Origin: Coriobacteriia bacterium
GTDB lineage: Bacteria > Actinomycetota > Coriobacteriia > Anaerosomatales > PHET01
NCBI GenBank assembly: GCA_035687245.1
Contig: DASRYH010000028.1
Span: 45,525 to 109,524 of the forward strand
Length of the DNA: 64,000 nt
Direction: 5' to 3'
Position numbers and translations under genes: made by a program. The notes below the pieces were generated by a model. It had not been told where the DNA came from. It saw only the letters and a program-made list of their open reading frames with translations, and ran no database searches. Shown piece after piece: positions 17,338-62,323 of this stretch; position 1 is the first letter of the stretch, and the number at the start of each line of letters is the position of its first letter.

Positions 17338-17457
17338 TTCCGGTCCTCCCTCATCACGTCGGCGACTGCTAGAGATGGTTGTTAGTCTAGCGCAGACACG
17401 GCGGGTGCCTATCCTTCACAATGAATCGCAGGCAGATGCCGACACAAGGAGAAGCGC

Positions 17458-39620: not shown

Positions 39621-40316
39621 TCAGCTCGCGAGCCGCCTCGCGAGCGCCTCGAGCATGAGCCGGACTCCACCCGCTGCCGCGATCTCAGCAAGTGCCATGG
39701 CCAACGCCACGAGCCCGGGCGCGATGAGGTCACGTGCGCGTTCGGCCTTCCGGTCGAACCAGGGCAGCATGCCGACCATCACGGCGTTGATGGCGGCTAA
39801 CGTGGCAAGCACCGACAGCGCGATCAGGACCGGGAATGCGGCGCCAAGCAAGGGGCCACCAAGCCCGACGAGCGCAATGCTCACCGGCACACCAGCCAGC
39901 CATACCCAGAATCGCCACGCAGTGTCCAGGACGCGAACCTGCGCGGCCCTCTTCCACATGACGTCGTTGAACATCGGGGTCACGGCAGCCGCCACAGCGA
40001 AGCCGACGCCCATTCCACTGGCAAGCCTCAGCCAGTTGGTGGTCTCTCTGAAGCCGCCATACGACGAGACGCCGTCCCAGCCCATGAATGCGACCAAGAG
40101 CCCCATCACCACCCACACGTGGGTACGCGGGAAGCCCCGGGGCTTGTCACGGTGAAAGAAAGCGATCAACACGAAGGCGAGTGTGAACCCGACGTAGATG
40201 CCGGTATCGCGTGCGCACACGGGCGCTTGAAGACCGCCGGCGACGTAGGAGCGCTCCGGAAGTTGGTGGCAAAGCCCGTAGCCGAGCCAGTGCAGCAGCG
40301 CCTGCAGCACACTCAC
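39621..40316 (-). CDS. Integral membrane protein (DUF2085-like)
   Basis: 231-aa ORF. The N-terminus LGYGLCHQLPERSY is typical of DUF2085, followed by 5-6 TM helices. Confidence 0.6.
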   Translation of the reverse strand: MSVLQALLHWLGYGLCHQLPERSYVAGGLQAPVCARDTGIYVGFTLAFVLIAFFHRDKPRGFPRTHVWVVMGLLVAFMGWDGVSSYGGFRETTNWLRLASGMGVGFAVAAAVTPMFNDVMWKRAAQVRVLDTAWRFWVWLAGVPVSIALVGLGGPLLGAAFPVLIALSVLATLAAINAVMVGMLPWFDRKAERARDLIAPGLVALAMALAEIAAAGGVRLMLEALARRLAS

Positions 40317-40533: not shown

Positions 40534-40565
40534 GGAGGCCCGACCGTGTTACCGGCCGGGCCTCC
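40534..40565 (-). terminator. Intrinsic terminator after the 24-haem cytochrome gene
   Basis: GGAGGCCCG...CGGGCCTCC forms a 9-bp stem with extra inner pairs. It is followed on the minus strand by TCATTTGTTCT, 27 nt after the stop. Confidence 0.65.
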
Positions 40566-40591: not shown

Positions 40592-42787
40592 CTAGTTCAG
40601 CAGGCCCTTCTTGGCGAGGTTGACGTGGCAGTTCGCGCAGAAGGTCGGCTTGTGGCAGCCGAAGCAGCCATCGGTGCCGTTCTTCTTGACGACGTTCGGG
40701 TGGTAGCGGACCCACGGCTTGTCGGCCGGGGCGCCCTCGTGGTGGCACGAGTTACAGAACGCCGTCTTGTGGCAGTTCGAGCAAGTGGACTTGCTCAGCT
40801 TCTTGTCGGCAAAGCTCTTGGCGTGCGCCCCACCGTTGCCGGCGCCCTTGGCTCCGAAGCCATCGGGGTGCGGCATCTCGAGCTTGTGGCAGCTGCTGCA
40901 GAACTTGGCGTTCGGCAGTGCGGCAACTTCGCCCTTGTGGCAGTAGGTGCAGATCTCGCCATTGTCCTTGTAGAGCTGGACGTGCTTCGCGTCCTTGTTG
41001 CTGAAGTCCCTGATGAACTTGGACTGCTTGTGCGACGCCGGAACGACGTTGCGCTTGTTGTGGCACTTCACGCAGTCGTTCTTGGTGTGGCACTTCTCCA
41101 CACAGCCAGCAGCACCATTCTTGTTGACCGAGCCACCGTGGATGCTGATCCACGACTTGCTGGTCGACGAACCAATGTGGTGGCAGTTGCTGCAGACTTC
41201 CTTGAACTGGTGGCACTTCTTGCACTGGCTCGAGTTCTTCTTGCTGCTCACGTGGTTCGTCTTGAAGTCAGCCGGGTGCGGCATCTCAAGCTTGTGGCAG
41301 CTCTTGCAGAAGGCACCGTTGACGCCGCCAGCGTGGCAGACATCGCAGGCCTCGATCGACTTCTGAGCCTCGACGGCGTGCTTGCCGCTGACCTTCGCCG
41401 GCGTCTTGCCGTAGACGGTCATGGCGCCAGGAGCACCAGGCTTGATCCAGCCAGCCTGCTTGTGGGAGGCCGGGAAGACCTTCTTCGAGGTGTGGCAGTC
41501 GGAGCAGAACTTCGCTTCGTGGCACTCAGCAGTACAGGTCTTGATGCCCTTCTCGGCAACAGCCTTCGGGTGCTGCTTCGCGGTCCACGGCTCGGTCGCG
41601 ACGAACTTGTAGCCGCCGGCCTTGGTGCCGTGGTGGCAGTTGTCGCAGAAGTGCGACTCCTCGTTCTTGCCGTGACACATGATGCACTTCTTCGGGAACT
41701 GCTTCGACATTGCAGGGTGGCCCTGCGCCGGATCGGCAGTCGCAGTCGGCTCCTTGAAGGCGGCGGGGTGCGGCATCTCCATACCGTGGCAGCCGTCGCA
41801 GAACTGCTTCTCTACGTGGCATGTGCCGCAGTAGTAGATCGACTCGACCTTCGGCAGCTCGCCGCCGATAGAGTGCATCTCGTCGCCAGGGTTCTTCTTC
41901 TGCTCTTCGAGCAGCGCCTTGACCTCTTCGCGAGCAACGGGCTTCTCTTCTCCGCCACCGGAGGCATAGGCCTTCTCGGTACCCAGAAGGCTCTGCTCCT
42001 TCTCGGCTGCGCCTTCTTCACCCTCGGCGCTCGCCTCAAGAGCCTTGGCGGCCTCTTCCTTGGCCTCCTTCGCCATCTCGGCGTGGCCCTTGGGGTAGAA
42101 GTCCTTCTCGCGGTGATTCTCGGGCTTCAGTTCGAAGTTCGAGGGGTGGCACGCGCTACAGCGACCAGGAGCCGCTGCGCCGTCCTCAAGACCGTGGCAA
42201 CGGAAGCAAGCGGTCATCGAGGTGAAGACCAAGTGCTTCGTGTTGGGCTGCCCGGTCTTCGGATTCGTAAGCGTGAGCTTGAAGTCCTCGGTGTGGGCGA
42301 TACGGTTGTGGCAGACCGGACAGGCCGCGTTAACCTCCGCATGAACGGCGTGATCGATCTTCACGCCCTCAGTCGGGGTGACCTTGCGGGTCTCCATGCT
42401 GTGACACTGGGTGCACTTGTCGCCCGTCATCGTGAGCGCGACCTCGGACTCCCCGTTGAGCGGGAGGTCGTAGTCGTCACGAACGGTCAGGTACAGCTCA
42501 CCCAAGGCCTCAGCCTTGTGCAGGATGAAGATGACCGGGTTCGCGTTGACCGGCATGTGGCAAGCCATACAGCTTACTTTGGCGTGGGACGAGTGTTCAT
42601 AGGCAATGATCGTGTCGTCCTGAACCTTGTGGCAGGCCTCCGCGCAGAACCAACGAGTCGAAGTCACCCCCAATACGGGAACCATGACCCCGGCAATCAC
42701 CAGGACCGCTACTAGCGCCCAGATGATGTACCGTGGCCGCCGGACCGGATCCTTGAATCCGGCCAGGGAGATCTTCGCCATATTCAT
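40592..42787 (-). CDS. Membrane-anchored multihaem cytochrome c (22 CxxCH + 2 CxxxCH motifs); NapC/NirT-like N-terminal module
   Basis: 731-aa ORF with one N-terminal TM helix (YIIWALVAVLVIAGVMVPVLGV). Motifs counted by eye: CAEACH, CMACH, CTQCH, CPVCH, CFRCH, CSACH, an acidic/Lys linker, then 18 more in three modules. Confidence 0.85.
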   Translation of the reverse strand: MNMAKISLAGFKDPVRRPRYIIWALVAVLVIAGVMVPVLGVTSTRWFCAEACHKVQDDTIIAYEHSSHAKVSCMACHMPVNANPVIFILHKAEALGELYLTVRDDYDLPLNGESEVALTMTGDKCTQCHSMETRKVTPTEGVKIDHAVHAEVNAACPVCHNRIAHTEDFKLTLTNPKTGQPNTKHLVFTSMTACFRCHGLEDGAAAPGRCSACHPSNFELKPENHREKDFYPKGHAEMAKEAKEEAAKALEASAEGEEGAAEKEQSLLGTEKAYASGGGEEKPVAREEVKALLEEQKKNPGDEMHSIGGELPKVESIYYCGTCHVEKQFCDGCHGMEMPHPAAFKEPTATADPAQGHPAMSKQFPKKCIMCHGKNEESHFCDNCHHGTKAGGYKFVATEPWTAKQHPKAVAEKGIKTCTAECHEAKFCSDCHTSKKVFPASHKQAGWIKPGAPGAMTVYGKTPAKVSGKHAVEAQKSIEACDVCHAGGVNGAFCKSCHKLEMPHPADFKTNHVSSKKNSSQCKKCHQFKEVCSNCHHIGSSTSKSWISIHGGSVNKNGAAGCVEKCHTKNDCVKCHNKRNVVPASHKQSKFIRDFSNKDAKHVQLYKDNGEICTYCHKGEVAALPNAKFCSSCHKLEMPHPDGFGAKGAGNGGAHAKSFADKKLSKSTCSNCHKTAFCNSCHHEGAPADKPWVRYHPNVVKKNGTDGCFGCHKPTFCANCHVNLAKKGLLN
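40625..41836 (-). repeat. Three tandem intragenic hexahaem modules (about 110-130 aa each)
   Basis: Each module has the pattern CxxCH-x4-9-FCxxCH(K/G)(L/M)EMPHP ... CxxCH-x4-7-CxxCHH ... Cx2-3CH-x4-CxxCH. Modules 1 and 2 are each followed by V(F/V)PASHKQ. Approximate residues are 320-440, 481-588 and 613-721. Confidence 0.8.
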
Positions 42788-42858
42788 CTCTCCTTGCTCT
42801 GCTCGAATCGCCCAGGCATCGTCAAACGACGGTGTTCGCCCTGCACACCATCAGATGA

Positions 42859-42931: not shown

Positions 42932-44074
42932 TCATCCTGCCACGTCTGAGAGCTCGAGTAAGGCCGTTTCCAAGCGCCCAGCAGCTGCCGAAGACGTGTC
43001 GGAGAGCGTGAGCAACTCGTCTGCGATACCCGACAGCTGCTCCACTTCCCCGGTCTGAAGTCGCGACAGATGCGCTGTTTCGGCGGCTGCCGTTGCGGCA
43101 GTCGAACAGGTGTCGGCGACTTCGGCGAGCTGAGATGCGGTGCGCATCACGATCTCGCGCGACTCATCAACCATGAGGCGCATGCGCTCGGTCGACCCCA
43201 CCAGCGCGACCGCGCCCGACTGGAGTTCGTGGACAACGCGGCTGATTTCGGAGGTCGACTCGGTCACCGACTCCGCGAGATTGCGGATCTCTTCAGCGAC
43301 AACGGCGAATCCGCGGCCCGCGTCGCCCGCGCGCACCGCCTCAATCGAGGCGTTCAGTGCAAGTATCTTCGTCTGCTCGGCGATATCGTCGATGATCTCG
43401 AGCACTCCGCCAATGCGCTGGCCGTCGTAGCCGAATCGCTCAACGCGGTCGGCGGCATCACTCGAGTGGCGACCGATGCTCGCAAGGGTCACCGACGCTT
43501 CATCGATGAGCTGAACGGCGCGGCGGGAGTCTTCTCCGGCCCGCTCCGACGCCTCAAAGGCCTGGCCGGCGTTCTCCAGCACGTTGACCGCATTGTGCGC
43601 GAGTATCTCGGTCTCACGCCTCAGCCGCTCGTTCGTGTTGGCCTGCCGCTTCGTAGCACCTGCGGACTCGTCGGCGGTATGGCACAGTTCAGAAGCCCGC
43701 GCTCGCAGCATGCCGGAGCGCGACTGTGATTCGTCGAGGGTCACGCGCGCGAGATCGAACATGCGGCCAGCGCGCTGGAGCGCACGTTCGTCTCCGGTGG
43801 CGGCCGGGGCGCGCATTCTAAGCCGGGTCTCGGCGTCCTCCAGGACGCTCGCGCAGGCGTCTTCGCCGATTCTGTCACCGAACCATGCGACGGCCAGACC
43901 AGCACCCGCACCCATGCCTACGAACAACGTCGCGAGGACGATCGAGGCAACGACACTGCGCGGCGTCGTCAGCAGGCTCGCAAAGACCCACATCGCGACG
44001 CCTGCGGCAACGCCGATGCCGACTGCGTTGAAACGCAGCCGACCGCGCTCTTGCCACCAGTTGCTTGCAGTCAC
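42932..44074 (-). CDS. Methyl-accepting chemotaxis-type signalling protein with two TM helices and almost no outside loop
   Basis: C-terminal MCP signalling domain ([36 protein letters not shown]). I place the start at GTG 44074 (GAAGGG upstream). The longest ORF (to 44620) would run through the divergent promoter and the opposite-strand genes. Confidence 0.72.
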
Positions 44075-44192
44075 GTACCGACCCTTCAGGACACGGTGCG
44101 ATCTCAGCTTCAGCCGCGCGCGGGCACCCTTCCGTACCGCGACCCTTGATAAGACACTACGGTAGGGGTATCGGCCAATTACTTGCACGTTA

Positions 44193-44210
44193 TATACCCC
44201 TTGGGGTATA
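44193..44210. promoter_or_regulatory. Perfect palindrome TATACCCC-TT-GGGGTATA (operator candidate)
   Basis: 8-bp perfect inverted arms, 42 nt upstream of ATG 44252, in the divergent MCP / ferredoxin-operon intergenic region. Confidence 0.55.
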
Positions 44211-44251
44211 GTCAGCGAGCTCGGTTCGTCAAAGGAAGGAACTCCCGCATC

Positions 44252-44455
44252 ATGTCTGTCGTCACTATCGACACCGCCCGCTGCGATCGCTCGCCCGGTT
44301 GCCCGTCTCGCCGAATCTGCCCGACAGGCGCTATTGTGCCGATCGACGGCGGTGCCTACCCCGGTGCGAACGGGTACACGGTCATCGAAGAGAAGTGCTC
44401 CGGTTGTGCTGTCTGCGTGCGTGTGTGCGCGGGTGGCGCGTGCCGGATCGGATAG
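44252..44455 (+). CDS. Small Cys-rich 4Fe-4S ferredoxin-like protein
   Basis: [29 protein letters not shown]...[25 protein letters not shown] after AAGGAAGG. The second cluster motif is CxxCxxCxxxC. Confidence 0.6.
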
Positions 44456-44467
44456 AAGGAGCAGTTG

Positions 44468-44812
44468 ATGCCTAAGCCCGTCATCGTCGAGGTCTTCGAC
44501 GTTCCCTCCGCCTCCGACTGCTTCTCGGGTGGATGAGGCCCGTCCTGGTCTCCGGAGGAGATCACGGCCATCGTCCGCACCGAGCTTGAGCGCCGCTATG
44601 GTGACGACGCCCAAGTCCACTACTACAACACGCAGGATGACTCGGTTCGGCAGCAGTACGCCGCGCTGATCACTGAGATCGACGAGCGCGGCCTGCTCTA
44701 CCCCGTCACCGTCGTCGACGGCGTGCCCGTCTACGACGGCGCCGTGAGCTACCCGGCCATCATGCGCGCGGTCAACAACAAGCTGCTTGAACAGGAACAG
44801 ACCGCCAAGTAG
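44468..44812 (+). CDS. Candidate selenoprotein: ArsD-like thioredoxin-fold protein with in-frame TGA (codon 23)
   Basis: Not in the ORF track. ATG 44468 lies 6 nt after GAAGGAG. My translation: [114 protein letters not shown]. The TGA is at 44534-44536, and the frame stays open for 91 further codons with protein-like sequence. Confidence 0.6.
44537..44569 (+). promoter_or_regulatory. Candidate bacterial SECIS hairpin
   Basis: Starts directly after the TGA. Lower stem GGCC/GGCC (44537-40 with 44566-69). Upper 8-bp stem TGGTCTCC/GGAGATCA (44546-53 with 44557-64). G-rich apical loop GGA about 17-20 nt after UGA. Confidence 0.5.
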
Positions 44813-44839: not shown

Positions 44840-45985
44840 ATGCCGAGAGTCTCGCTTTCACGCTGCGCCGACTACTCCCCCGCACTCGTTGCCTCTTCGC
44901 TTGCCGAAGTGCTCGAGCCGCTGGGCGGTATGTCGGCCTTCGTGTCTCCCGGGCAGCGCGTACTGCTCAAGGTGAACCTGCTGTCGCGCGCGCTGCCTGA
45001 AAGGGCGGTCACCACCCACCCGGAGGTCGTACGCGCCCTTATCCGCGAAGTGAGGGCCTGTGGGGGCATACCCACAGTGGGTGACAGTCCCGGCGGCCCG
45101 AACAGTGTCGGCATGGTGAAGCGGGTGTGGGCGGACAGCGGTATCGGCAGTGTCTGCGCCGAAGAGAACGTGGAGCTGGTGCTCTTCGACGATGACGTCC
45201 TGCGCGTGCCCGCTCCTGACGCAACCCTCTACGGCTCCTTCAGCTTGGGACGCGCCGTCGTCGAGACAGACGTGCTCATCTGCGTGCCGAAGTTCAAGAC
45301 GCACGGCTTCATGATGTTCACGGGCGCGGTGAAGAACCTCTTCGGCTGCATACCGGGCCTTGAGAAGGCGCAGTACCACATCAAGGTGCCGGAGCGTGAC
45401 GACTTCGCCGACATGCTTCTCGACCTCATGCTCGCCTGCAAACCAGCGCTTTCTGTAATGGATGCAGTCGTCGGCATGGAGGGTGAGGGTCCCGCCGGGG
45501 GCAAGCCGAAGGCCGTTGGCGCGCTCATCGCTTCGGCGGACGCATGTGCGCTGGACCTGGTCGCATCATCGATGGCCGGCCTGGCGCCAGACGAGGTCTA
45601 CACGGTGAAGATGGCCGCGAAGCGCGGTATGTGCACAGACGATGTCGATGCCGTTGAGATCGCCGGTGCCGACTGGCGCGATCTTGCGCCCGACAGCTTC
45701 GAACTCCCCGCGGTGGACCTGTCCCGCAAGATGCCGCCGTGGCTGGGGAACCGGCTGCGCTCTTGGCTGACCGCCAAGCCGGTGCTGGAGAACAAGCCCG
45801 GCTGCACTCGCTGCAAGACCTGCCAAGACGTGTGCCCGGTCGATGCGATCGTAGTGACTGAAGATGGCCCGCAGTTCGACCGCGCCAAGTGCATCCGCTG
45901 CTACTGCTGCCAGGAGCTGTGTCCGCCGCAGGTCATCGGGCTGTCGGTGCCGCTTGTGGCCCGCGCGCTCTCCAAGCGCCGCTAG
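44840..45985 (+). CDS. DUF362-domain protein with C-terminal 2x[4Fe-4S] ferredoxin domain
   Basis: 381-aa ORF. N-terminal DUF362-like part (VLLKVNLLS...HPEVVRALI...GDSPGG). C-terminus [12 protein letters not shown]...[12 protein letters not shown]. Confidence 0.75.
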
Positions 45986-55634: not shown

Positions 55635-56981
55635 CTAGCCGTTAAGCGCCGCGTCCACTGCGGCGTCATCTACCTCGGAGACGCCGCGGTCAGCAGCGTC
55701 GTCAATCGCGGCGTTGGCAAGCGCGATGAAGCGCGGGAGGTCGTCTTCGGCGGCGTCGGCGAGCCGAACCATCCCGGGCGACTCCATCGACATCGCAGTC
55801 GCTCCAGGAAGCGCGGCCGAGTCGAACCACCCGTCAACGATCTCAGGCTGGAGCTTGGTGGGGGCATCCTGAAGGAGCTGGATGTTTGCAAACGACCACT
55901 CGACCCGCGAGCCCTCGGGCACGCGCTCCTCCATCTCGGGCACCTCGCCCGGCGAGAACGCGTAGACCATCACGACCGGGCCCGCGAGCTTCTGACGCAG
56001 CCTCAGCATCGAGTCGGCCACATCGCGACGCAGGTCCTCGGGGACCTCCATCCAGCTGCGAAACTCGTCGTAGATGAACGCCGCCTTCGTAAAGCGTACG
56101 GAGGACAACTCGACCAGATTGGTAAGCGTCTTGCGCGGGGCCTTGGTGATCTTGAGCTCTTCCATGAGTGCGGCCATTCCGCGCTCTCGATAGAGGCGCA
56201 GCCCTCGCGCCAGAACGGGCGTCAAGTGCGCCCGGGTGTAGTCGATGAAGTAGTCGAGCAGCATTCGAGAGTCATCATCAGACATCTCGATCTGCGCGAG
56301 GATGGTGGAGGTGCCCGGCGCGTCGCCGAGCGTCGCGTCGACTTCCTCGGTTGTGTCGGTCTCGTCGCCATCCTCTTCGAGATTGGTGCGGCGCATGTCG
56401 GCAACCTCGATGAGCTCTTCGTGGCGCTCGAGCTCGGGCTCGCCGAAGACGCGCCGAACTGCGGTCAGTGCATCGGCACCGAACTCCTCGGCGAACGCGG
56501 CAAGAGCGTCGGGACCCAGCACCGCGTAGGAGGCAAGCGTGTCGTCGGGCGACGCGAGAACCTTCTTGACGTAGGGAACCAGAGTGAGCTCGAAGTCGCG
56601 GAACGCAAGGCGCTCAGCGAACACCCCGAGGGTTCCCCTCACGACACCGATCTTGAACATGAAGAGCTGAACATAGGCGTAGATGACGTTGAAGTCATCG
56701 TCGGTGGCGAGCACGCGCTCGGCGTGAGCCATGGCCGCCAGAGGGTAGCTCGGCGGAATGTCGGCGTCCTTGTCGACCCAGATGGGAAGCGGCGCGTCTT
56801 CGTCGCGCGCCTGGAGAATCGCCTTCAGCAGGCGATTCGAAGCCGCCCTAGTCTCGCACTCGACTCCGGGCTCGCCCGGGTTGTCGGCGCCGCCGGCAAA
56901 CGGGTTGGCGTGCAGCCCGAGGGATGCGTAGCGAGAGATGCCCTGTGGCGCTTCTTCTGCTTCGGTCGGGGTCGTCGGCAA
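55635..56981 (-). CDS. Hypothetical cytoplasmic protein (N-terminus resembles ExeA/AAA-like LGLxxNPF lead-in but has no Walker A)
   Basis: 448-aa ORF, TTG start after AGGTGA. Acidic, with no signal peptide and no GxxxxGK(T/S) motif. Confidence 0.5.
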   Translation of the reverse strand: MPTTPTEAEEAPQGISRYASLGLHANPFAGGADNPGEPGVECETRAASNRLLKAILQARDEDAPLPIWVDKDADIPPSYPLAAMAHAERVLATDDDFNVIYAYVQLFMFKIGVVRGTLGVFAERLAFRDFELTLVPYVKKVLASPDDTLASYAVLGPDALAAFAEEFGADALTAVRRVFGEPELERHEELIEVADMRRTNLEEDGDETDTTEEVDATLGDAPGTSTILAQIEMSDDDSRMLLDYFIDYTRAHLTPVLARGLRLYRERGMAALMEELKITKAPRKTLTNLVELSSVRFTKAAFIYDEFRSWMEVPEDLRRDVADSMLRLRQKLAGPVVMVYAFSPGEVPEMEERVPEGSRVEWSFANIQLLQDAPTKLQPEIVDGWFDSAALPGATAMSMESPGMVRLADAAEDDLPRFIALANAAIDDAADRGVSEVDDAAVDAALNG

Positions 56982-57051
56982 GGACGTTCACCTGCTCTCT
57001 TATCTAGCTGGCCGGACATCAAGCGTACAACGTCGGCCGCGCGAATGGGGC

Positions 57052-57093
57052 TTCGAAAAGCGGGGGCCCCGGGCTCGTTGCCCGGGACCCCCC
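57052..57093 (-). terminator. Intrinsic terminator closing the hydrogenase-cytochrome operon
   Basis: The minus strand reads GGGGGGTCCCGGGC-AACGA-GCCCGGGGCCCCC followed by GCTTTTCGAA, 44 nt after the cytochrome stop. Confidence 0.7.
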
Positions 57094-57136
57094 TTGTGCT
57101 GCAATCGTGCGTTGCCGCTAAGCGGAGTCGAAACCC

Positions 57137-58447
57137 CTACTTGTCGTGGCAGCGCTCGCACACGCCGCGGTTGTCGGCACGGAGCAGAGCACTGGTGCCC
57201 TGGAGGCCGGCGGTTGCGGGATCGTCGTCCTTGTCAGGATCCACGCCAGCGATACCGTCACGCACGGGAACCCAAGTTCCTTCGGCGTTCTGGGTAAGGG
57301 AGGCAGCGGCCCAACCGTTCATGACGGCGGCAGAACCGTGAGCGTAGTGGCAGGTGAGGCAGCCAACCTGATTCTGGCGATTCGAGGCAGCGCCAGGAGT
57401 GACCTCCAGCGGCACGTGCTGGTCGAGGTTGCCATCAGCCTGAGCTGCAACCTGCAGGACGTCATCGCCCTGAACGAGCGTGATGTCGACCGGGTGACGG
57501 TGGCGAGGCTGCGAGCCGACAAGGCCAGCGCCCTCGTTCGTACCGTAGTCGTAGTTGCCGGTCTGGTTGTCGTACTGCTCGTGGCACGCAGCACACCAGG
57601 TCGACAGGGAGCCGACGCCGCCAACATAGGGGTTATCCATGCTGGAACGGATCTGCGAGCTACCCGAGGTGTAGTTCGGGACGTAGGCCTGCATCTGAGC
57701 CTGGCCGTCAGCGTGCTTCAGCCAACCGTTGTCCGAGTACGGGTAGTTGGTCTCAGTCGAGTAGACCATACCGTTCGGGGTGCCGTCGGGGTTGTAGCCA
57801 CCGACTGCGGTGTTGTTGACCGAGTCCTTCAGGAGGCGGTAGTTCGAGCTGCCGTGAGGATCGTGGCAGCTGGTGCAGGTCAGGTACAGCGAGTTGCCGG
57901 TCGTGGTGTTGCCAGCGCCCCACAGGATGCCCGTCTTCTCCATGGAGTGCGTGGAGGTGACGCCTGTGAGTGCCGGAGCCGCGTCGACTTCCCACTCGCC
58001 CAGCGTGCCCTTGTACATCGTCGAGAAACCGCCGCCGTTCAGCGGAGCGCCGAACGTGGAGCTCGTGACGTACGCGGTCGTGACGCCATCGTTGGTCGGG
58101 CCAACCTGGCCAGCGTAGCTGGAGGGGCCGCCATCGAAGATGCCCTCGACAACGTTCGTGGATGCGCCAGGAGCGTTGTCGCCGTGGCAAGCGTCACAGA
58201 ACTCCTGCATGGTGGCGGCGTCGCCGACCAGCAGGGCAGACGGGTTGTCTGCAGGGTCCCAGCCCGGAGGAGTGATCCTCGGGGTGAACGTCACGGACGA
58301 GAACGAGCTGTGAGCGCGGTGACAACCGGCGCAGGAGTCCGTGTCATCGATGTATCCGCCGTGCGGACCGAAGTTCGCGTACGCGGAGCCAACGACGGCG
58401 AGGGACAGCGCCAATACGAGCGTAAGTACTAGAACGAAACGCTTCAA
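57137..58447 (-). CDS. Secreted hexahaem cytochrome c, OmcS-like motif pattern
   Basis: TTG start at 58447 (RBS GGAGGTG, 17 nt after the large-subunit stop) gives signal peptide MKRFVLVLTLVLALSLAVVGSAYA-N. Six CxxCH motifs: CAGCHRAH, CDACH, CTSCHDPHG, WCAACH, CLTCHYAHGS, CERCHDK*. Confidence 0.85.
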   Translation of the reverse strand: MKRFVLVLTLVLALSLAVVGSAYANFGPHGGYIDDTDSCAGCHRAHSSFSSVTFTPRITPPGWDPADNPSALLVGDAATMQEFCDACHGDNAPGASTNVVEGIFDGGPSSYAGQVGPTNDGVTTAYVTSSTFGAPLNGGGFSTMYKGTLGEWEVDAAPALTGVTSTHSMEKTGILWGAGNTTTGNSLYLTCTSCHDPHGSSNYRLLKDSVNNTAVGGYNPDGTPNGMVYSTETNYPYSDNGWLKHADGQAQMQAYVPNYTSGSSQIRSSMDNPYVGGVGSLSTWCAACHEQYDNQTGNYDYGTNEGAGLVGSQPRHRHPVDITLVQGDDVLQVAAQADGNLDQHVPLEVTPGAASNRQNQVGCLTCHYAHGSAAVMNGWAAASLTQNAEGTWVPVRDGIAGVDPDKDDDPATAGLQGTSALLRADNRGVCERCHDK

Positions 58448-58464
58448 ATCTCTCACCTCCGTCG

Positions 58465-60537
58465 TTAGTGGATCGCGCAAGCGATGCAGGGGTCAAAGGA
58501 CTGGGCGATACGAGCGACCTCGACGCCACCGACGGTGGGGATGGACGCGCCACCCTGACCGGTGATGGTCTTGGTGTAAGTCGCACCCGTCGCGAACGGG
58601 GCACCGATGCATGCCTTCTCGATTGCACCATTCTGGCCAAGAACGTCCTTCGGCGAACCGTTCCACGTGGTGGGAACGATGCACTGATAGGCGGTGATCT
58701 TGCCGTTGTTGATGGTGATCTGGTGCATCAGGGAGCCACGCGGAGCCTGGCCTGCGCCCCAACCCTTCTTGATGCCGGTCGGGATCGACTTGTTGGCCCA
58801 GGTGGAACCAACGGTGTCGTTGGCGTTGACGCCAGCACCCGTGTAGGACTTGAGCTGGTTGATCCAGCTGCTGCTACCGAAGGACAGCGTGCCCAGAGGA
58901 GTCACGCTACCGTCGGACTTGCTGATCTTGCCAATCATGCGCTGGACGAGCACGAAGGACTGCAGGGCGCGAGCGCGCAGGCGGTCCATCGTGGACAGGC
59001 CGGCCTGGATGCCGAGGACCCAAGTCTGGATCGCGGCGACAAGACCCATGCCGTCGGCGCCGAACGGATACGCAACCGGGTCGACTCCGAAGAGGAACTT
59101 GCCCGAGTTCACGATGCCGTTGACGATCGTCGGAGCGATGATGTCGAGGTCGAGACCGCCAGCCTTGACGTAGAGGTCATAGCCCGAGACGGTAGCCGAC
59201 GTCGGGATGCTGGTGGCGAGATCGACGCCATCCTGGAAGTAGCCGTTGACGAACATGTCAGCCATGGGACCGACCTCGCAGGGCTTGCCAGCCCAGCGCG
59301 GGGCCTTCATGTAGCTGTAGCCGTCGTCACGAGCCGGCTTGGTGCGAGTGATGTCACCAGGATAGGTGGCCTCGGCACCAGCGAACGGACGAGATGCGGT
59401 CGTCGCATAGACGGCAGCGTCGTCGACGTACGGCACGTAGCGCGAGTTGGAGATGTCCTCAGTGAGGTTCGTCGGGACAGAGAGCGCGCCCGACAGGAAC
59501 TTGCTGATGACTTCGCCCTTATTCGCGACCGTGAAGTTGTACACGCCTGCAGGAGCACCAAGCTCGAGCACGCCGCCCTTGATGGCGAGATCGTCGTTGA
59601 GCTCAGGGAACTGACCCCAGACGAGGAAGCGGCCAAGACCAGCGCCGAAGCCGACGGGATCGCCGGGGGTGTAGAAGAAGCTGCGGGTCTTGTTGTGATC
59701 GTTGTCGAAGCCCGGATACAGGAAGCCGAGGACCAGAGCGATCGGCACGTACTCGTTGACGATGAACTTGCCGACTTCCTGGATGATCTCCTCGTACTTG
59801 TTGCAACGCTGAGTCAGGTTCTCCGTGCCATCGTTGGTGACGCCGCCACCGACGAAGCAGGAGGTCATCGGCATACGACCGGCGAACAGCGCGCCAGCCT
59901 CGAAGGTGAGGCGGCGAATGCGCAGTGCGCGAACGTAGCTGATGATGACCGCGTCCCAGATCTGCATGGTAGCCGTGTTGGCAACCGGCACAACGCCAGC
60001 GGTAGCGCTGACGGTGTCAGCCGAGAACGAGCTGCGCAGAACGGGGTTGTAGAAGGCTTCCGCGAAATACGGAGTCCAAGGCGGCATGTTCGGGCCCTGA
60101 ACGTAGCTCGGGGCAGCCAGGTGATAGAAGTGCGTGATGCTCGACATCAGGAACTCGGCCGAAAGGACGAGGTTACGGATGAGCAGAGCCTTCGGCGGAA
60201 TGCCGTAGGGGCTGCCAACCGCTTCGTTCAGAGTCGAGAACGTGATGTGAGAGCGGCTGTAGCCGAGAACAGAGTCGACCGCGTACGTCGAGGTCAGACC
60301 GTGCGGGACCGGGCAGACACCGCAGATGCGCTGCACGAAAGTGATCGCATCGTTGGCGCCACGGCCAAGCAGGAAGTTCTCGAAACCACGCCACAGGTTA
60401 CCGTGGGCGTTGGCGTCCTTGATGAAACCGTCAGAGCCAACTCGGACCTTGACTCCCAGGTGACCCTCGATACGAGAGACCGGGTCGACCTCGCGGTCCG
60501 TCGAGCCAGCGACGGTGTTGAGATTCCATACACTCAT
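58465..60537 (-). CDS. [NiFe]-hydrogenase large subunit
   Basis: 690-aa ORF with N-terminal motif RICGVCPVPH. The C-terminal DPCIACAIH is followed directly by the stop. Confidence 0.95.
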   Translation of the reverse strand: MSVWNLNTVAGSTDREVDPVSRIEGHLGVKVRVGSDGFIKDANAHGNLWRGFENFLLGRGANDAITFVQRICGVCPVPHGLTSTYAVDSVLGYSRSHITFSTLNEAVGSPYGIPPKALLIRNLVLSAEFLMSSITHFYHLAAPSYVQGPNMPPWTPYFAEAFYNPVLRSSFSADTVSATAGVVPVANTATMQIWDAVIISYVRALRIRRLTFEAGALFAGRMPMTSCFVGGGVTNDGTENLTQRCNKYEEIIQEVGKFIVNEYVPIALVLGFLYPGFDNDHNKTRSFFYTPGDPVGFGAGLGRFLVWGQFPELNDDLAIKGGVLELGAPAGVYNFTVANKGEVISKFLSGALSVPTNLTEDISNSRYVPYVDDAAVYATTASRPFAGAEATYPGDITRTKPARDDGYSYMKAPRWAGKPCEVGPMADMFVNGYFQDGVDLATSIPTSATVSGYDLYVKAGGLDLDIIAPTIVNGIVNSGKFLFGVDPVAYPFGADGMGLVAAIQTWVLGIQAGLSTMDRLRARALQSFVLVQRMIGKISKSDGSVTPLGTLSFGSSSWINQLKSYTGAGVNANDTVGSTWANKSIPTGIKKGWGAGQAPRGSLMHQITINNGKITAYQCIVPTTWNGSPKDVLGQNGAIEKACIGAPFATGATYTKTITGQGGASIPTVGGVEVARIAQSFDPCIACAIH

Positions 60538-60561
60538 GTGGTTTTGCCTCCTCTCTTCTTC

Positions 60562-61857
60562 TTAGCGCTTCACGAAGGGCACGAACGCGTCCGGATAGCC
60601 CTTCTCGGTGCATGCCATGCAGGGGTAGCCAGCGACGGTGCAGTGACCGCCGACGCCGTTCTTGTTCAGACCGGACAGCGTACCCGCGTTCTCCGGCTGC
60701 TGGTTGTTCCAACCATGCTTGCCGCAGAGAGAGCTAGCCGTGATGCCCTTGCAGCCGATCTTCTGCAGGCAGCCCGGATCGCCCGGCTTGAGGGCGTAGA
60801 TGCCCTTGGTGTAGCTCGGGTAGCGCGGACAGAAAGCTCCGTGAACCGTACCCGGGTAGACGCGCTTGACGCGACGACCGGCGTCGAGCTCGATGAGGTC
60901 GGTGCCGGCGAGCTTCAGCATGACCATGACGGTGGTGAGAACGAACCACCACGGGTTGGTCGGGCAGCCCGGGACATTGATGACCTTGGCAGCTGCGGCG
61001 TTGACGTCCGCAACAAAGGCGGCCTTCAGCGGATCAGCGTCAGCGTACTGCGACAGGAAGTCGTAAGCACCCTGGGCGCCGGTCTGCGACAGAGCGGGAT
61101 CGAAGCCCCCGAGGCCCTTCTTTGCGGTCGTGGCGCTGATCTGGGGCTTGCAGCCCGGATAGCCACCGTAGCAAGCGCACTGGCCGATCGGGAGGATCGC
61201 AGCGCACTCAGGCATGGCGGCGAGGTCGGCGACGACCTCCGGCATGTCCTGCTCGTGCGAACCGTCGTCGAAGACGCCGATGGAGCACCACGGCGTCGTG
61301 CCGGTGTTGCCCCACGCGCCACCCTGACGGGCATCCTGCATGGCACCCTCGATGACGAGCACGAACGGATCGTTGCTGCCGGTCGAGTAGGTGTCACGGA
61401 AGTCCTGGAGCCACTTGGCGGCGAGGTCGCCCGCCGGGCCCATGACGGTCTCGTGATACTGAAGGTCGATGACGTCGATGACGACGTCAGCGATGTTGAC
61501 CAGAGCACCGTCGGCACGAAGACCGCCGGTGAGGGTCGGGAAAGCGCCGCCAAGGGCGTTGGTTACGCCGGCAAGCCCGAGGGCGGTACCGGTGTCGATC
61601 CCAGCGACGGTAGCGTTGCTGTCATAGCGGAACGGCTTGCCACTGGCATCCTCGAGGATACCCAGCAGAGACGTGGAGCAGCCCGTGCACTCCGCGCCGT
61701 GAATCCATACGACCTTGGGCTTGCCGAAGGTTCCGCCGTAAGCGTTCGAATTGCCCGCAAACGCATCGGCGATCTTAGTTACCTCGACCTGGCTAAAGCC
61801 AACGGCGGTAGCCAGCGCTCCCAAGCGCGTTACGAACTGACGCCTGGTAATGGCCAT
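60562..61857 (-). CDS. [NiFe]-hydrogenase small subunit with twin-arginine signal
   Basis: 431-aa ORF with MAITRRQFVTRLGALATAVGFS..., WIHGAECTGCS (proximal cluster) and the C-terminal GYPCMACTEKGYPD. There is no C-terminal TM helix. Confidence 0.95.
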   Translation of the reverse strand: MAITRRQFVTRLGALATAVGFSQVEVTKIADAFAGNSNAYGGTFGKPKVVWIHGAECTGCSTSLLGILEDASGKPFRYDSNATVAGIDTGTALGLAGVTNALGGAFPTLTGGLRADGALVNIADVVIDVIDLQYHETVMGPAGDLAAKWLQDFRDTYSTGSNDPFVLVIEGAMQDARQGGAWGNTGTTPWCSIGVFDDGSHEQDMPEVVADLAAMPECAAILPIGQCACYGGYPGCKPQISATTAKKGLGGFDPALSQTGAQGAYDFLSQYADADPLKAAFVADVNAAAAKVINVPGCPTNPWWFVLTTVMVMLKLAGTDLIELDAGRRVKRVYPGTVHGAFCPRYPSYTKGIYALKPGDPGCLQKIGCKGITASSLCGKHGWNNQQPENAGTLSGLNKNGVGGHCTVAGYPCMACTEKGYPDAFVPFVKR

Positions 61858-62196
61858 ACTCTCTCCTCCTTCACGTGCATCGATGAACCTACTTACTAGC
61901 TGGACTTACAAAACTACACTCACGGAACTCCACGCACTTTCAGGCGAAAAAACGGAAAACGCCACCTCCTCTCGGCCCGCGTGAGCGGAGAACCGGAATG
62001 GAGGCGGCGCACAAATTCGAGAATGCTGGCAGGGACCCGGTACGCAGGAAGTGGTACGAAACAGGCTGCGAATTGCTTGAATGGGGGTCATCCGACCAAG
62101 CGGGTCTTCGTGCCGGCTCCAACCCGGAAGGTCTACTGTTTCGGTACCCCTCCTTCATTGGGTACTTCAAGCGCTGTAGAAGCGCACATGACAGTT

Positions 62197-62214
62197 TTGT
62201 AACAGGAGTTACAA
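62197..62214. promoter_or_regulatory. Candidate Rex operator in the hydrogenase leader
   Basis: TTGTAAC-AGGA-GTTACAA is a perfect 7-bp inverted repeat with a 4-nt spacer, 340 nt upstream of the small-subunit start. It shares half-sites with 34628..34645. Confidence 0.45.
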
Positions 62215-62261
62215 ATGGGACTGTAAGCCCTGTGAAGGTGCTCGTCAAGCACAATTGGCGT

Positions 62262-62298
62262 GGTTGGTGCCACCCGATCAACTCGGGTGGCACCAACC
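62262..62298 (-). terminator. 16-bp perfect hairpin after the NHL-repeat gene
   Basis: GGTTGGTGCCACCCGA-TCAAC-TCGGGTGGCACCAACC, 26 nt after the stop at 62324. It has no clear U-tract. Confidence 0.6.
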
Positions 62299-62323
62299 AG
62301 GTGCTGCCAACGTTGCACGGCAC

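What the first reader, a model, noticed from the sequence alone, without database searches (positions are those of the whole stretch)
40592..42787. Single polypeptide with 24 haem-binding motifs: membrane-anchored NapC/NirT-like quinol-dehydrogenase head fused to an 18-haem tail
Seen in sequence: one N-terminal TM helix is followed by four CxxCH motifs with NapC/NirT-like spacing (FCAEACH...SCMACH...CTQCH...CPVCHNRIAH) and two more (CFRCH, CSACH). Next comes a Glu/Lys/Ala-rich linker of about 85 aa, then 18 further motifs (16 CxxCH, 2 CxxxCH). The gene has its own terminator and a possible promoter. From established knowledge, NapC/NirT/CymA-type tetrahaem proteins oxidise menaquinol, and very large multihaem proteins are proposed to span Gram-positive walls in Thermincola- and Carboxydothermus-type metal reducers. 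Inference: this is a quinol-to-cell-surface wire made of one protein, complementary to the H2-fed OmcS-like route 15 kb away.
Basis: partly seen in the sequence, partly recalled or inferred. Interest (0 to 1): 0.8.

Follow-up and report, generated by a model that had tools for sequence, protein, structure and literature searches.

The report
Membrane-anchored 24-haem cytochrome wire
One gene of an uncultured Gram-positive actinobacterium (class Coriobacteriia) encodes a membrane-anchored protein carrying 24 haem groups, most likely a molecular wire between the respiratory membrane and electron sources or sinks outside the cell; the matching gene in a related bacterium is switched on about 17-fold when that bacterium lives on an electrode that feeds it current.

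Summary
ORF 40592..42787 (-) encodes 731 aa (likely 729, starting at M3) with one N-terminal TM helix and 24 haem-c motifs (21 CxxCH + 3 CxxxCH). All 48 Cys are in motifs; shuffles give about 0.2 motifs.

The layout is a six-haem head, an acidic variable linker, and three tandem copies (34-37% identical) of a basic hexahaem module. The first four head haems are NapC/NirT/NrfH-like.

The protein is conserved full-length in over 100 uncultured Coriobacteriia/Anaerosomatales genomes at a fixed slot (MCP > MHC24 > DUF2085). All motifs are invariant, as are 24 further His, enough for bis-His ligation of every haem.

12- and 18-haem versions exist. The 12-haem paralogue sits in a multi-cytochrome/ResB/MenG cluster.

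The orthologue in biocathode bacterium EMTCatB1 is gene 1d0898: about 2350 TPM on the working cathode versus about 130 at open circuit.

The 'outward-facing electron conduit anchored by a NapC/NirT-type head' reading is supported. Quinol coupling is homology-based only, and quinones were not detected in two cultured relatives. Spanning the wall alone is untested, and the only expression data point to electron uptake. The link to an 'OmcS-like' route is unsupported.

Verdict: a new variant of a known kind, of moderately high interest.

The parts
40592..42787 (-). Coding sequence of the 24-haem cytochrome (731 aa from the first ATG; the likely true start is the ATG at 42781, giving 729 aa, 79 kDa apo and about 94 kDa with 24 haems)
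   Evidence: (GC3 0.85, typical of genes in this window); 332 homologues, the top 120 all full-length
42790..42795 (-). Ribosome-binding site AAGGAG, 8 nt upstream of the M3 ATG (42781)
   Evidence: sequence read; M3 is invariant in A1/A2
42731..42781 (-). Conserved cytoplasmic N-terminal segment (aa 3-19; M3, S7, G10, P14, R17 and R19 invariant), basic and ahead of the TM helix
   Evidence: function unknown
42662..42730 (-). Single N-terminal transmembrane anchor helix (aa about 20-42)
   Evidence: hydropathy maximum 2.87 for the 19-aa window starting at aa 21; AF2 helix 17-42
42293..42661 (-). NapC/NirT/NrfH-like tetrahaem part of the head (haems 1-4: CAEACH 48, CMACH 73, CTQCH 125, CPVCH 156)
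   Evidence: NrfH 2j7a_C E 5.6e-5; TIGR03153 39 bits; PF03264 in 37/45 orthologues
42074..42292 (-). Two additional head haems (CFRCH 194, CSACH 210) plus invariant His185, His225 and His235; Pfam Cytochrome_C7 match aa 142-214
41852..42073 (-). Acidic Glu/Ala/Lys/Gly-rich linker (aa 239-312, pI 4.6); the core at about aa 250-300 is not conserved in sequence or length
   Evidence: conservation near 0; inter-motif gap 67-141 aa across the family; pLDDT below 60 at 260-280
41408..41851 (-). Hexahaem module 1 (haems 7-12)
40988..41407 (-). Hexahaem module 2 (haems 13-18)
40595..40987 (-). Hexahaem module 3 (haems 19-24), free C-terminus, no LPXTG
40534..40565 (-). Intrinsic-terminator-like hairpin (13 bp, 11 GC pairs) after the stop codon
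40371..40447 (-). tRNA-Pro (CGG), separating the cytochrome gene from the downstream DUF2085 gene
42932..44620 (-). Upstream MCP-type chemoreceptor gene with two adjacent TM helices and no large outer domain (the true start is probably internal to this ORF). It is a conserved neighbour in about 48 genomes; functional linkage is unproven
39621..40316 (-). Downstream DUF2085 membrane protein, a conserved neighbour in about 50 genomes; functional linkage is unproven

Best explanation
The gene encodes an outward-facing c-type multihaem cytochrome held in the cytoplasmic membrane by one uncleaved N-terminal helix.

Its first four haems form a NapC/NirT/NrfH-type module at the membrane surface. This module most likely exchanges electrons with the membrane quinone pool. 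That step is inferred from homology.

Two further head haems, a flexible acidic linker and three tandem basic hexahaem modules extend the chain to 24 haems. All of them are probably bis-His low-spin electron-transfer centres. The extension carries electrons between the membrane and redox partners in or beyond the Gram-positive wall, such as other cytochromes, minerals, electrodes or syntrophic partners.

The chain can in principle run either way. The only expression data, from an orthologue, indicate use during electron uptake from a cathode.

Shown: motif content, conservation, modular architecture, synteny, and induction of the orthologue. Inferred: haem attachment, topology, quinone coupling, physiological direction, and how far the tail reaches.
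For: - Motifs: 24 haem motifs with all 48 Cys in motifs, far above chance.
- Conservation: all motifs and 24 additional non-motif His are invariant or nearly so in 121 sequences. That gives one distal ligand per haem and no obvious open catalytic site.
- Head position: a single TM helix with haem 1 only 5 residues after it, as in NrfH.
- Head homology: NrfH 2j7a_C at E 5.6e-5. PF03264 NapC/NirT in 37/45 orthologues, best E 3e-16. Invariant K91 and E97 lie in the stretch that aligns to the NrfH helix carrying Lys82/Asp89. The alignment is; the role of those NrfH residues is from my own knowledge of the NrfH structures.
- Model: the AF2 model is confident (pLDDT 84.7) except in the linker.
- Tail: three modules at 23 residues per haem.
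- Length series: a natural 12/18/24-haem series shares the same head.
- Paralogue context: the 12-haem paralogue sits next to a 15-haem cytochrome, ResB and a MenG/UbiE methyltransferase that passes curated cut-offs.
- Distribution: the orthologue is at a fixed locus in over 50 genomes of Coriobacteriia, including Anaerosomatales. That order contains an obligate Fe(III) reducer (PMC9686372).
- Expression: the EMTCatB1 orthologue is 1d0898, identified by gene order dnaJ-MCP-cytochrome-membrane protein. It reads 2347 TPM on the working biocathode versus 137 at open circuit and 130 with BrES, and the authors propose it for direct electron uptake (PMC7943316).
Against: - The window protein itself does not reach PF03264 at E<=1, and it scores far below the NrfH equivalog cut-off (39 vs 134 bits).
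- Haem 1 uses CxxxCH-K instead of the canonical CxxCH(E/x)M, so the quinol site may differ.
- Respiratory quinones were not detected in either cultured Anaerosomatales.
- No structural match was obtained: Foldseek against the PDB gave 0 hits.
- No haem-attachment, localisation or activity data exist for any member.
- The gene is monocistronic among housekeeping genes, so context gives no partner.
Confidence: 0.65

Rival explanations
1. Stand-alone wall-spanning wire. One molecule bridges menaquinol in the membrane to the outer face of the wall and reduces extracellular acceptors directly, with no other cytochrome.
For: - The gene is monocistronic with its own terminator.
- It is elongated by two extra modules relative to the 12-haem paralogue that sits among partner cytochromes.
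- The tail is basic (pI 9.0) and could sit in an anionic wall, and the linker is flexible.
- By analogy, a 24-haem chain could reach roughly 15-24 nm. This uses my own knowledge: MtrA has 10 haems over about 8 nm, and GSU1996 has 12 haems over about 12 nm.
Against: - Length could not be measured, because no coordinates are exposed.
- pTM is 0.59, so the relative arrangement of the modules is uncertain.
- There is no wall-anchoring or surface-exposure signal.
- The cultured relative has a 'thick bilayered' wall.
- Relatives encode 17-18 other multihaem cytochromes and form pili-like appendages on ferrihydrite.
- The orthologue's expression fits uptake rather than discharge.
Confidence: 0.25
2. 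Electron-collecting hub or capacitor working inward. The tail gathers electrons from extracytoplasmic donors and delivers them to the quinone pool, analogous in role to Hmc/Qrc-type complexes of sulfate reducers. The donors would be cathode-contacting cytochromes, the cytochrome-c-linked [NiFe] hydrogenase, or formate dehydrogenase. The many haems would also buffer charge.
For: - 1d0898 is induced together with a NiFe hydrogenase, a formate dehydrogenase and the V-ATPase on a current-consuming cathode.
- The window encodes an extracytoplasmic-type [NiFe(Se)]-like hydrogenase with an adjacent hexahaem cytochrome c instead of a cytochrome b.
- NapC/NirT proteins such as CymA are reversible (own knowledge).
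Against: - There is no direct evidence of direction.
- The hydrogenase cluster is 15 kb away and is not syntenic with the cytochrome in the other genomes examined.
- Anaerosomatales relatives are Fe(III) or sulfur reducers that need outward flow.
Confidence: 0.3
3. Quinone-independent anchor. The N-terminal helix only tethers the cytochrome, and electrons enter from a membrane protein complex rather than from quinol. The NapC-like similarity would be just shared haem packing.
For: - Quinones were not detected in A. tenue and P. hydrogeniphila.
- The haem-1 motif is non-canonical.
- The window protein fails PF03264 on its own.
- A strongly conserved cytoplasmic N-terminal peptide (aa 3-19) hints at a protein partner.
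Against: - The relatives encode Nuo complexes and a cytochrome-b-linked group 1i hydrogenase, both of which need a quinone.
- A MenG/UbiE methyltransferase lies beside the 12-haem paralogue in 11-12 loci.
- 37/45 orthologues match the NapC/NirT model.
- A Lys and a carboxylate are conserved in the NrfH-aligned helix.
Confidence: 0.15
4. Catalytic multihaem enzyme, for example a nitrite, sulfite or hydroxylamine-type reductase, rather than a wire.
For: - The module profile gives weak, non-significant hits to NrfA (E 0.78-10).
- EMTCatB1 is said to encode nitrite respiration.
Against: - There are exactly 24 conserved non-motif His for 24 haems, no CxxCK or other special motif, and no conserved Tyr/Lys active-site signature.
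- No Pfam or NCBIfam enzyme family is matched.
- The repetitive module architecture is typical of wires.
Confidence: 0.04

Closest known systems
NrfH / NapC / NirT / CymA family of membrane-anchored tetrahaem quinol dehydrogenases (Pfam PF03264; NrfH structure 2j7a/2vr0)
   Same: - A single N-terminal TM anchor with haem 1 immediately after the helix.
- Four haem motifs with similar spacing: 25/52/31 residues here versus about 24/49/21 in the NrfH alignment.
- NrfH is the only PDB sequence relative.
- Most orthologues match PF03264.
   Different: - 24 haems instead of 4.
- Haem 1 uses CxxxCH-KVQDD instead of CxxCHxM / CxxCHEM.
- The window protein scores below family thresholds.
- No partner reductase gene is adjacent.
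- Quinol activity is untested.
ImcH of Geobacter sulfurreducens (heptahaem inner-membrane cytochrome with a NapC/NirT-like region) and the 'putative quinol-oxidising multihaems' of Carboxydothermus ferrireducens (20 haems, Ga0395992_02_135863_137242; PMC7829351) and of Anaerosomatales (PMC9686372)
   Same: The concept is the same: a NapC/NirT-type or quinol-interacting membrane head extended by extra haems and feeding an extracellular electron-transfer chain. Gram-positive examples are proposed from genomics and proteomics.
   Different: - Per the papers, the C. ferrireducens assignment rests on CISM-anchor-like domains.
- None of these is described as a head plus three tandem hexahaem modules.
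Thermincola potens / T. ferriacetica Gram-positive EET chain (ImdcA, PdcA, CwcA, OcwA; Carlson 2012, Costa 2019, PMC7911101)
   Same: The problem solved is the same: moving electrons from the membrane across a thick wall with multihaem cytochromes. The EMTCatB1 authors invoke this model for 1d0898.
   Different: Thermincola uses several separate 6-10-haem proteins in relay. Here a single polypeptide carries 24 haems, starting with the membrane head. No sequence relationship was established.
GSU1996-type 'nanowire' dodecahaem cytochromes (tandem c7-like trihaem domains) and the 16-haem HmcA
   Same: Long haem chains built by tandem duplication of a small multihaem module.
   Different: - The repeat unit differs: a roughly 140-aa hexahaem module made of three paired CxxCH(H) motifs with a CH(K/G)(L/M)EMPHP signature.
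- The Cytochrome_C7 Pfam match lies in the head, not the tail.
- The module has no significant PDB sequence relative.
- This protein is membrane-anchored.
MtrC/MtrF/OmcA outer-membrane decahaem cytochromes (Pfam PF22113 domain II/IV)
   Same: A Pfam hit of 36 bits (cut-off 30) over aa 50-201, i.e. similar pentahaem motif spacing.
   Different: - No flanking beta-barrel domains; AF2 shows almost no strands.
- No lipoprotein signal.
- The hit overlaps the NapC-like head, so it is best read as haem-packing similarity, not membership.

Membership tests
NapC/NirT/NrfH quinol dehydrogenase family (PF03264 / TIGR03153) | Single N-terminal transmembrane anchor, with the first haem motif directly after the helix on the outer side | tested here: met
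   TM at aa about 20-42 and haem 1 Cys at aa 48. A basic segment (RRPR) precedes the helix, which fits N-in topology.
NapC/NirT/NrfH quinol dehydrogenase family (PF03264 / TIGR03153) | Four c-haem motifs with family-typical spacing | tested here: met
   Motifs at aa 48, 73, 125 and 156 align to the four NrfH motifs. Haem 1 is CxxxCH rather than CxxCH.
NapC/NirT/NrfH quinol dehydrogenase family (PF03264 / TIGR03153) | Significant match to the curated family model | tested here: inconclusive
   The window protein has no PF03264 hit at E<=1 and scores 39 bits on TIGR03153 against a cut-off of 134. However, 37 of 45 orthologues (47-68% identical) match PF03264 at E<=1e-3, best 3e-16, and PDB NrfH matches at E 5.6e-5.
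NapC/NirT/NrfH quinol dehydrogenase family (PF03264 / TIGR03153) | Quinol-site residues near haem 1 (Lys and Asp of the NrfH helix; CxxCHxM in NrfH) | tested here: inconclusive
   Invariant K91 and E97 lie in the aligned helix; E97 aligns with the Asp of 'RD' in NrfH, and K91 is 2 positions from the aligned Lys. The CxxCHxM Met is replaced by CxxxCHKV. The roles of the NrfH residues are recalled from the literature, not tested.
NapC/NirT/NrfH quinol dehydrogenase family (PF03264 / TIGR03153) | Fold similarity to NrfH/CymA | tested here: inconclusive
NapC/NirT/NrfH quinol dehydrogenase family (PF03264 / TIGR03153) | Menaquinol dehydrogenase activity | not testable with these tools
   Needs biochemistry. 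Caveat: quinones were not detected in two cultured Anaerosomatales.
MtrC/MtrF/OmcA decahaem outer-surface cytochromes (PF22113) | Pentahaem domains alternating with beta-barrel domains; lipoprotein signal | tested here: not met
   There is a Pfam domain hit of 36 bits over aa 50-201. But the AF2 secondary structure has essentially no beta strands, the N-terminus is a TM anchor without a lipobox, and the hit overlaps the NapC-like head.
OmcS-type filament-forming hexahaem cytochromes | Sequence or fold relationship to OmcS; inter-subunit His ligation, leaving one haem short of an intramolecular ligand | tested here: not met
   The module profile against OmcS 6ef8_A gives E 0.12, which is not significant. 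The family has 24 conserved non-motif His for 24 haems, so no ligand deficit.
c7-type tandem-repeat 'nanowire' cytochromes (GSU1996-like) | Tandem trihaem c7 domains | tested here: not met
   The Cytochrome_C7 Pfam match is confined to aa 142-214 in the head. The tail repeats are roughly 140-aa hexahaem units with only sub-threshold c3/paired-CXXCH hits.
Generic multihaem cytochrome c (covalent haem via CxxCH, Sec-exported, matured outside the cytoplasm) | Conserved CxxCH-type motifs with distal ligands and an export/anchor signal | tested here: met
   24 invariant motifs plus 24 conserved His plus an N-terminal anchor. Actual haem attachment is not testable here. ResB-type maturation genes are present in relatives' genomes but not within this window.

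The most novel reading that the evidence does not exclude
The family is a length-tunable, single-polypeptide membrane-to-exterior conduit. A specialised NapC/NirT head (CxxxCH haem 1) is coupled to 1, 2 or 3 hexahaem modules, giving 12, 18 or 24 haems. The 24-haem form alone bridges the Gram-positive envelope, and it lets subsurface Coriobacteriia take up electrons directly from cathodes, minerals or syntrophic partners as well as discharge them. The conserved adjacent sensor-less MCP may couple this to redox sensing. This would be a Gram-positive solution to trans-envelope electron transfer, distinct from the multi-protein relay proposed for Thermincola.
Probability: 0.25. Interest if true: 0.8.

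Novelty: new variant of a known kind. Interest (0 to 1): 0.6.

Why it matters
How monoderm (Gram-positive) bacteria move respiratory electrons across a thick, non-conductive wall is still largely unresolved. The current model, from Thermincola, is a relay of several cytochromes.

This family has several useful properties:
- **Simple target.** It is a one-gene candidate found in over 100 species-level genomes of subsurface, peat, sediment and bioelectrode Coriobacteriia.
- **Natural length series.** 12/18/24-haem forms make the question 'does chain length set reach?' directly testable.
- **Independent evidence.** An orthologue is switched on during cathodic electron uptake that supports electromethanogenesis.
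- **Gap in the catalogue.** A 2018 survey found 0 CymA and 1 ImcH homologue in Actinobacteria (PMC6295460). This family would add a fused type of membrane quinone-pool/EET cytochrome.
- **Unsolved structure.** The hexahaem module has no solved-structure relative by sequence, yet it occurs in at least 870 protein clusters with up to 49 haems.

Tried and rejected
- **Chance ORF or pseudogene:** rejected. GC3 is 0.85, there are 332 homologues, motifs are invariant and the ORF is intact.
- **PDB profile searches:** the family profile found only NrfH, weakly (E 0.0046). The module profile found nothing significant.
- **MtrC/MtrF membership:** rejected despite a Pfam domain hit (see the membership test).
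- **Second cathode-induced cytochrome of EMTCatB1 (1c0642):** I tested whether it is the 12-haem paralogue. It is not; its neighbours are kinase, FHA and phosphatase genes.
- **Single origin of the 24-haem form:** I tried to test this with a head-only NJ tree. It was unresolved. The 12-haem forms split into at least two groups, and some '12-haem' calls at the syntenic slot are probably truncated ORFs.
- **Haem-count table for the cultured Anaerosomatales:** none is held in the supplement, so I could not establish whether A. tenue or P. hydrogeniphila carry the 24-haem orthologue.
- **Promoter:** the sigma-70 scan found none.
- **Sortase or LPXTG wall anchor:** none.
- **Taxonomy of distant module-bearing proteins:** mostly unnamed; only Actinomycetota names were recovered.
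- **Recent peat-MHC preprint:** it does not mention this lineage.
Full report
**1. Observation**

The ORF listing returns an ORF at exactly 40592..42787 on the minus strand, 731 aa. A script counted 24 haem-c motifs: 21 CxxCH and 3 CxxxCH, the latter at aa 48, 418 and 562. All 48 cysteines of the protein lie in these motifs. 2000 shuffles of the sequence give a mean of 0.23 CxxCH and a maximum of 2. The codon-position GC pattern (GC3 0.85) matches the other genes of the window.

The strongest hydropathy window starts at aa 21, and AlphaFold2 predicts a helix at 17-42. The first-stage description is therefore correct. Four amendments apply:

- The first 'NapC-like' motif is CxxxCH.
- The 18-haem tail consists of three tandem hexahaem modules that are 34-37% identical to one another. 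Each module has the pattern CxxCH-x5-9-CxxCH(K/G)(L/M)EMPHP ... CxxCH-x4-8-CxxCHH ... Cxx(x)CH-x4-CxxCH.
- The probable start is the second ATG (M3, 42781). It lies 8 nt downstream of AAGGAG, is invariant in homologues, and gives the 729 aa of the 97%-identical metagenomic protein P0001.
- The sigma-70 scan finds no promoter.

A 13-bp GC-rich hairpin terminator (40565..40534) and a tRNA-Pro follow the gene.

**2. Family and conservation**

The word-indexed search found 332 homologues. The best 120 are all full-length (677-778 aa, 47-97% identity), and the names that exist read 'NapC/NirT family cytochrome c' or 'hypothetical' from Coriobacteriia/Actinobacteria MAGs.

In alignments of 45 and 121 sequences, all 48 Cys and the 24 motif His are invariant apart from His214 (conserved in about 99% of sequences). 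A further 24 non-motif His are invariant or nearly so: 8 in the head and 16 in the tail. That is exactly one potential distal ligand per haem. It argues for bis-His electron-transfer haems and against a catalytic open site.

The linker core (about aa 250-300) is unconserved in sequence and length; the inter-motif gap ranges from 67 to 141 aa. It is acidic (pI 4.6), whereas the tail is basic (pI 9.0, 59 K/R versus 33 D/E). The cytoplasmic N-terminal peptide (aa 3-19) is among the most conserved parts of the protein, and this is unexplained.

**3. The head**

- Against the PDB, the only sequence relative is the quinol dehydrogenase NrfH (2j7a_C, E 5.6e-5, aa 22-151). With the family profile it is again the only one, at E 0.0046.
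- NCBIfam NrfH scores 39 bits, far below the equivalog cut-off of 134.
- Pfam PF03264 (NapC/NirT) is not reached by the window protein. It is matched by 37 of 45 orthologues, best E 3e-16.
- The Pfam hits the window protein does get are MtrC/MtrF domain II/IV (36 bits, aa 50-201) and Cytochrome_C7 (aa 142-214). Both lie in the head.
- The haem-1 motif FCxExCHKVQDD (CxxxCH) is present in all 120 orthologues and all 17 12-haem paralogues. More distant head-bearing relatives keep the canonical FCxxCHEM.

I therefore treat the head as a derived NapC/NirT-type module. Membership is supported at family level, and quinol activity is untested.

**4. Structure**

**5. Genomic context**

In the window the gene is monocistronic. 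An MCP-type chemoreceptor gene lies upstream on the same strand. Downstream are the terminator, tRNA-Pro and a DUF2085 membrane protein. Everything else within about 10 kb is housekeeping (Rex, M50 protease, PNP, HD, SAM hydroxide adenosyltransferase, DUF362 Fe-S protein, DnaJ, EamA, pilus-type ATPase, wall hydrolases). The left half of the window is the rpoB/C - EF-Tu - ClpC - RadA - DisA - IspD - CysS core region.

A scan of 185,579 species-representative genomes found 163 relatives, all in uncultured Coriobacteriia/Actinomycetota. They include an Anaerosomatales MAG, HGW-Actinobacteria-7 and 'Coriobacteriaceae bacterium EMTCatB1'. The best is 66% identical.

I clustered my own ORF calls in the 80 fetched loci. 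The order (DnaJ/DUF362) > MCP > [RidA-like] > 24-haem gene > DUF2085 > ... > SAM-HAT > HD > PNP recurs in about 55 genomes. The gene is therefore a vertically inherited core gene of this lineage, not an island.

**6. A length series**

The same genomes often carry a 12-haem paralogue of about 400 aa. It is collinear with residues 3-434 of the window protein (head + linker + one module) at about 50% identity. 18-haem forms occur at the syntenic slot (L057) or in tandem with the 24-haem gene (L047).

The 12-haem paralogue lies in a genuine respiratory cluster with these genes:

- a 15-haem paired-CXXCH cytochrome
- ResB
- a 7-haem cytochrome
- an NHL-repeat protein
- Rex
- a B12/radical-SAM protein (TIGR04190)
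- an amidohydrolase
- a MenG/UbiE methyltransferase that passes curated cut-offs (TIGR01934, 246 vs 158 bits)

A profile of the three modules, searched against 1.84 billion representative proteins, hits 870 clusters at E<=1e-3 and 264 at E<=1e-10. The matched proteins have 1-11 matched stretches and 10-49 haems. Of the top 150, 64 also carry the NapC-like head, including 20-, 23-, 26- and 28-haem versions. The few named members are Actinomycetota. The module has no significant PDB sequence relative.

**7. Experimental evidence from a relative**

Kobayashi et al. 2021 (PMC7943316) sequenced transcriptomes of a thermophilic electromethanogenic biocathode dominated by Methanothermobacter and Coriobacteriaceae sp. 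EMTCatB1. [quoted passage not shown]

Their supplement lists 1d0896 = dnaJ, 1d0897 = tar/frzCD (an MCP), 1d0898 = multihaem cytochrome, and 1d0899 = predicted membrane protein. This is the gene order I find around the 24-haem orthologue (707 aa, 48% identical) on the plus strand of BDLO01000001.1 (locus L033). 1d0898 is therefore the orthologue.

Its TPM is 2347 under closed circuit, 137 at open circuit and 130 with BrES. 1c0642 is a different cytochrome, set among kinase and FHA genes.

Cultured Anaerosomatales include an obligate Fe(III) reducer and encode 17-18 multihaem cytochromes, some called 'putative quinol-oxidising' (PMC9686372). A 20-haem 'putative Q-oxidase' is constitutively produced in Carboxydothermus ferrireducens (PMC7829351).

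**8. Mechanism**

*Shown:* an intact, conserved, haem-dense ORF with an N-terminal anchor, a NapC/NirT-related head, a variable linker and triplicated modules. Also shown is induction of the orthologue on a cathode.

*Inferred:*

- The protein is Sec-inserted N-in/C-out and matured by a ResB/CcsA-type system.
- Haem 1 at the membrane surface exchanges electrons with (mena)quinone.
- The other 23 bis-His haems form a continuous chain carrying electrons to or from partners in or beyond the wall.
- The physiological direction is open. NapC/NirT proteins are reversible (own knowledge), and the only expression data favour uptake.
- By analogy with MtrA (10 haems, about 8 nm) and GSU1996 (12 haems, about 12 nm), both from my own knowledge, a fully extended 24-haem chain could reach 15-24 nm. 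That is of the order of a Gram-positive wall. However, pTM 0.59 does not fix the arrangement of the modules, and no surface-exposure signal exists.

**9. Caveats**

- Respiratory quinones were 'not detected' in both cultured Anaerosomatales. Those genomes nevertheless encode Nuo complexes and a cytochrome-b-linked hydrogenase, and a MenG gene lies next to the paralogue in MAGs.
- The window protein alone fails the curated NapC/NirT thresholds.
- The 'OmcS-like, H2-fed complementary route' is not supported. The hexahaem protein beside the [NiFe] hydrogenase (57137-58480) has no OmcS match at E<=1 and only a paired-CXXCH domain. That cluster is also not syntenic with the cytochrome elsewhere.

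**10. Verdict**

This is a real, conserved, uncharacterised architecture: a NapC/NirT-type membrane head fused to three hexahaem modules. It most likely serves as a quinone-pool-coupled extracytoplasmic electron conduit in subsurface Coriobacteriia. It is a new variant of a known kind. One orthologue has been flagged in a transcriptome and others are auto-annotated, but the architecture has not been dissected. Interest is moderately high, because it offers a single-gene, length-graded handle on trans-wall electron transfer in Gram-positive bacteria.

Noticed in passing
window 55635-63835 (-): A cluster of an NHL-repeat protein (62324-63835), a long [NiFe]/[NiFeSe]-like hydrogenase small subunit (431 aa) and large subunit (690 aa), and a Gly/Thr/Ser-rich hexahaem cytochrome c (57137-58480). 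Two proteins with no family match follow (448 aa and 281 aa), then a 756-aa Ig-domain protein. The hydrogenase is paired with a cytochrome c rather than a cytochrome b. The hexahaem protein has no PDB match to OmcS at E<=1. It does start with a 'GPHGGY...CxxCH' motif, which is also seen in the 7-haem proteins (c40) of the relatives' cytochrome clusters.
   Followed up: partly
window 42932-44620 (-); loci L001-L059: An MCP-type chemoreceptor with two adjacent TM helices and no sizeable extracytoplasmic domain lies immediately upstream of the 24-haem gene in about 48 genomes. The cultured relatives are non-motile. In EMTCatB1 the orthologous MCP (1d0897) is also about 3-fold higher on the working cathode (143 vs 40/51 TPM). 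This could be a redox or energy sensor linked to the cytochrome, or it could be plain synteny.
   Followed up: partly
window 42731-42781 (-), aa 3-19 of the cytochrome: The short cytoplasmic N-terminal peptide (MAKISLAGFKDPVRRPRY) is one of the most conserved parts of the protein, with M3, S7, G10, P14, R17 and R19 invariant in 121 sequences. NrfH shows no such conservation at this position. It suggests an unknown cytoplasmic or membrane-surface interaction.
   Followed up: no
window 39621-40316 (-): A DUF2085 membrane protein with conserved Cys/His near its N-terminus is the conserved downstream neighbour of the cytochrome in about 50 genomes. In the window the two are separated by tRNA-Pro. 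Its EMTCatB1 orthologue 1d0899 and the next two hypothetical genes (1d0900, 1d0901) are also higher on the working cathode.
   Followed up: no
loci L060-L079 (e.g. L060 10001-11194 and flanks): The 12-haem paralogue lies in a conserved cluster: 15-haem paired-CXXCH cytochrome > 12-haem NapC-like cytochrome > TIGR04190 B12/radical-SAM protein > MenG/UbiE methyltransferase > amidohydrolase (aminofutalosine-deaminase-like, below cut-off). ResB, a Wzy/O-antigen-ligase-like TPR membrane protein, an NHL-repeat protein, 7-haem cytochromes and Rex are nearby. This looks like a combined EET and quinone-modification locus.
   Followed up: partly
L047 8633-10396 and 10665-12818; L057 9965-11764: 18-haem versions (head + two modules) occur at the syntenic slot. 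In L047 one lies in tandem with a 24-haem copy, to which it is the closest relative. This suggests recent duplication with module loss or gain.
   Followed up: partly
window 16924-19002: A cyclic-nucleotide-binding protein (16924-17337, -) sits next to an adenylate/guanylate cyclase-domain protein (17458-19002, +), embedded between tRNA genes in the ribosomal/EF-Tu region.
   Followed up: no
window 44840-45985 (+) and 44183-44455 (+): A DUF362 protein with a C-terminal 2x[4Fe-4S] ferredoxin domain is divergently oriented upstream of the MCP/cytochrome pair. In relatives, a small 4Fe-4S ORF (c46) and a DUF1462 thioredoxin-like ORF (c17) occupy this position in many loci. The window has a similar small Fe-S ORF overlapping the long MCP ORF call.
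   Followed up: no
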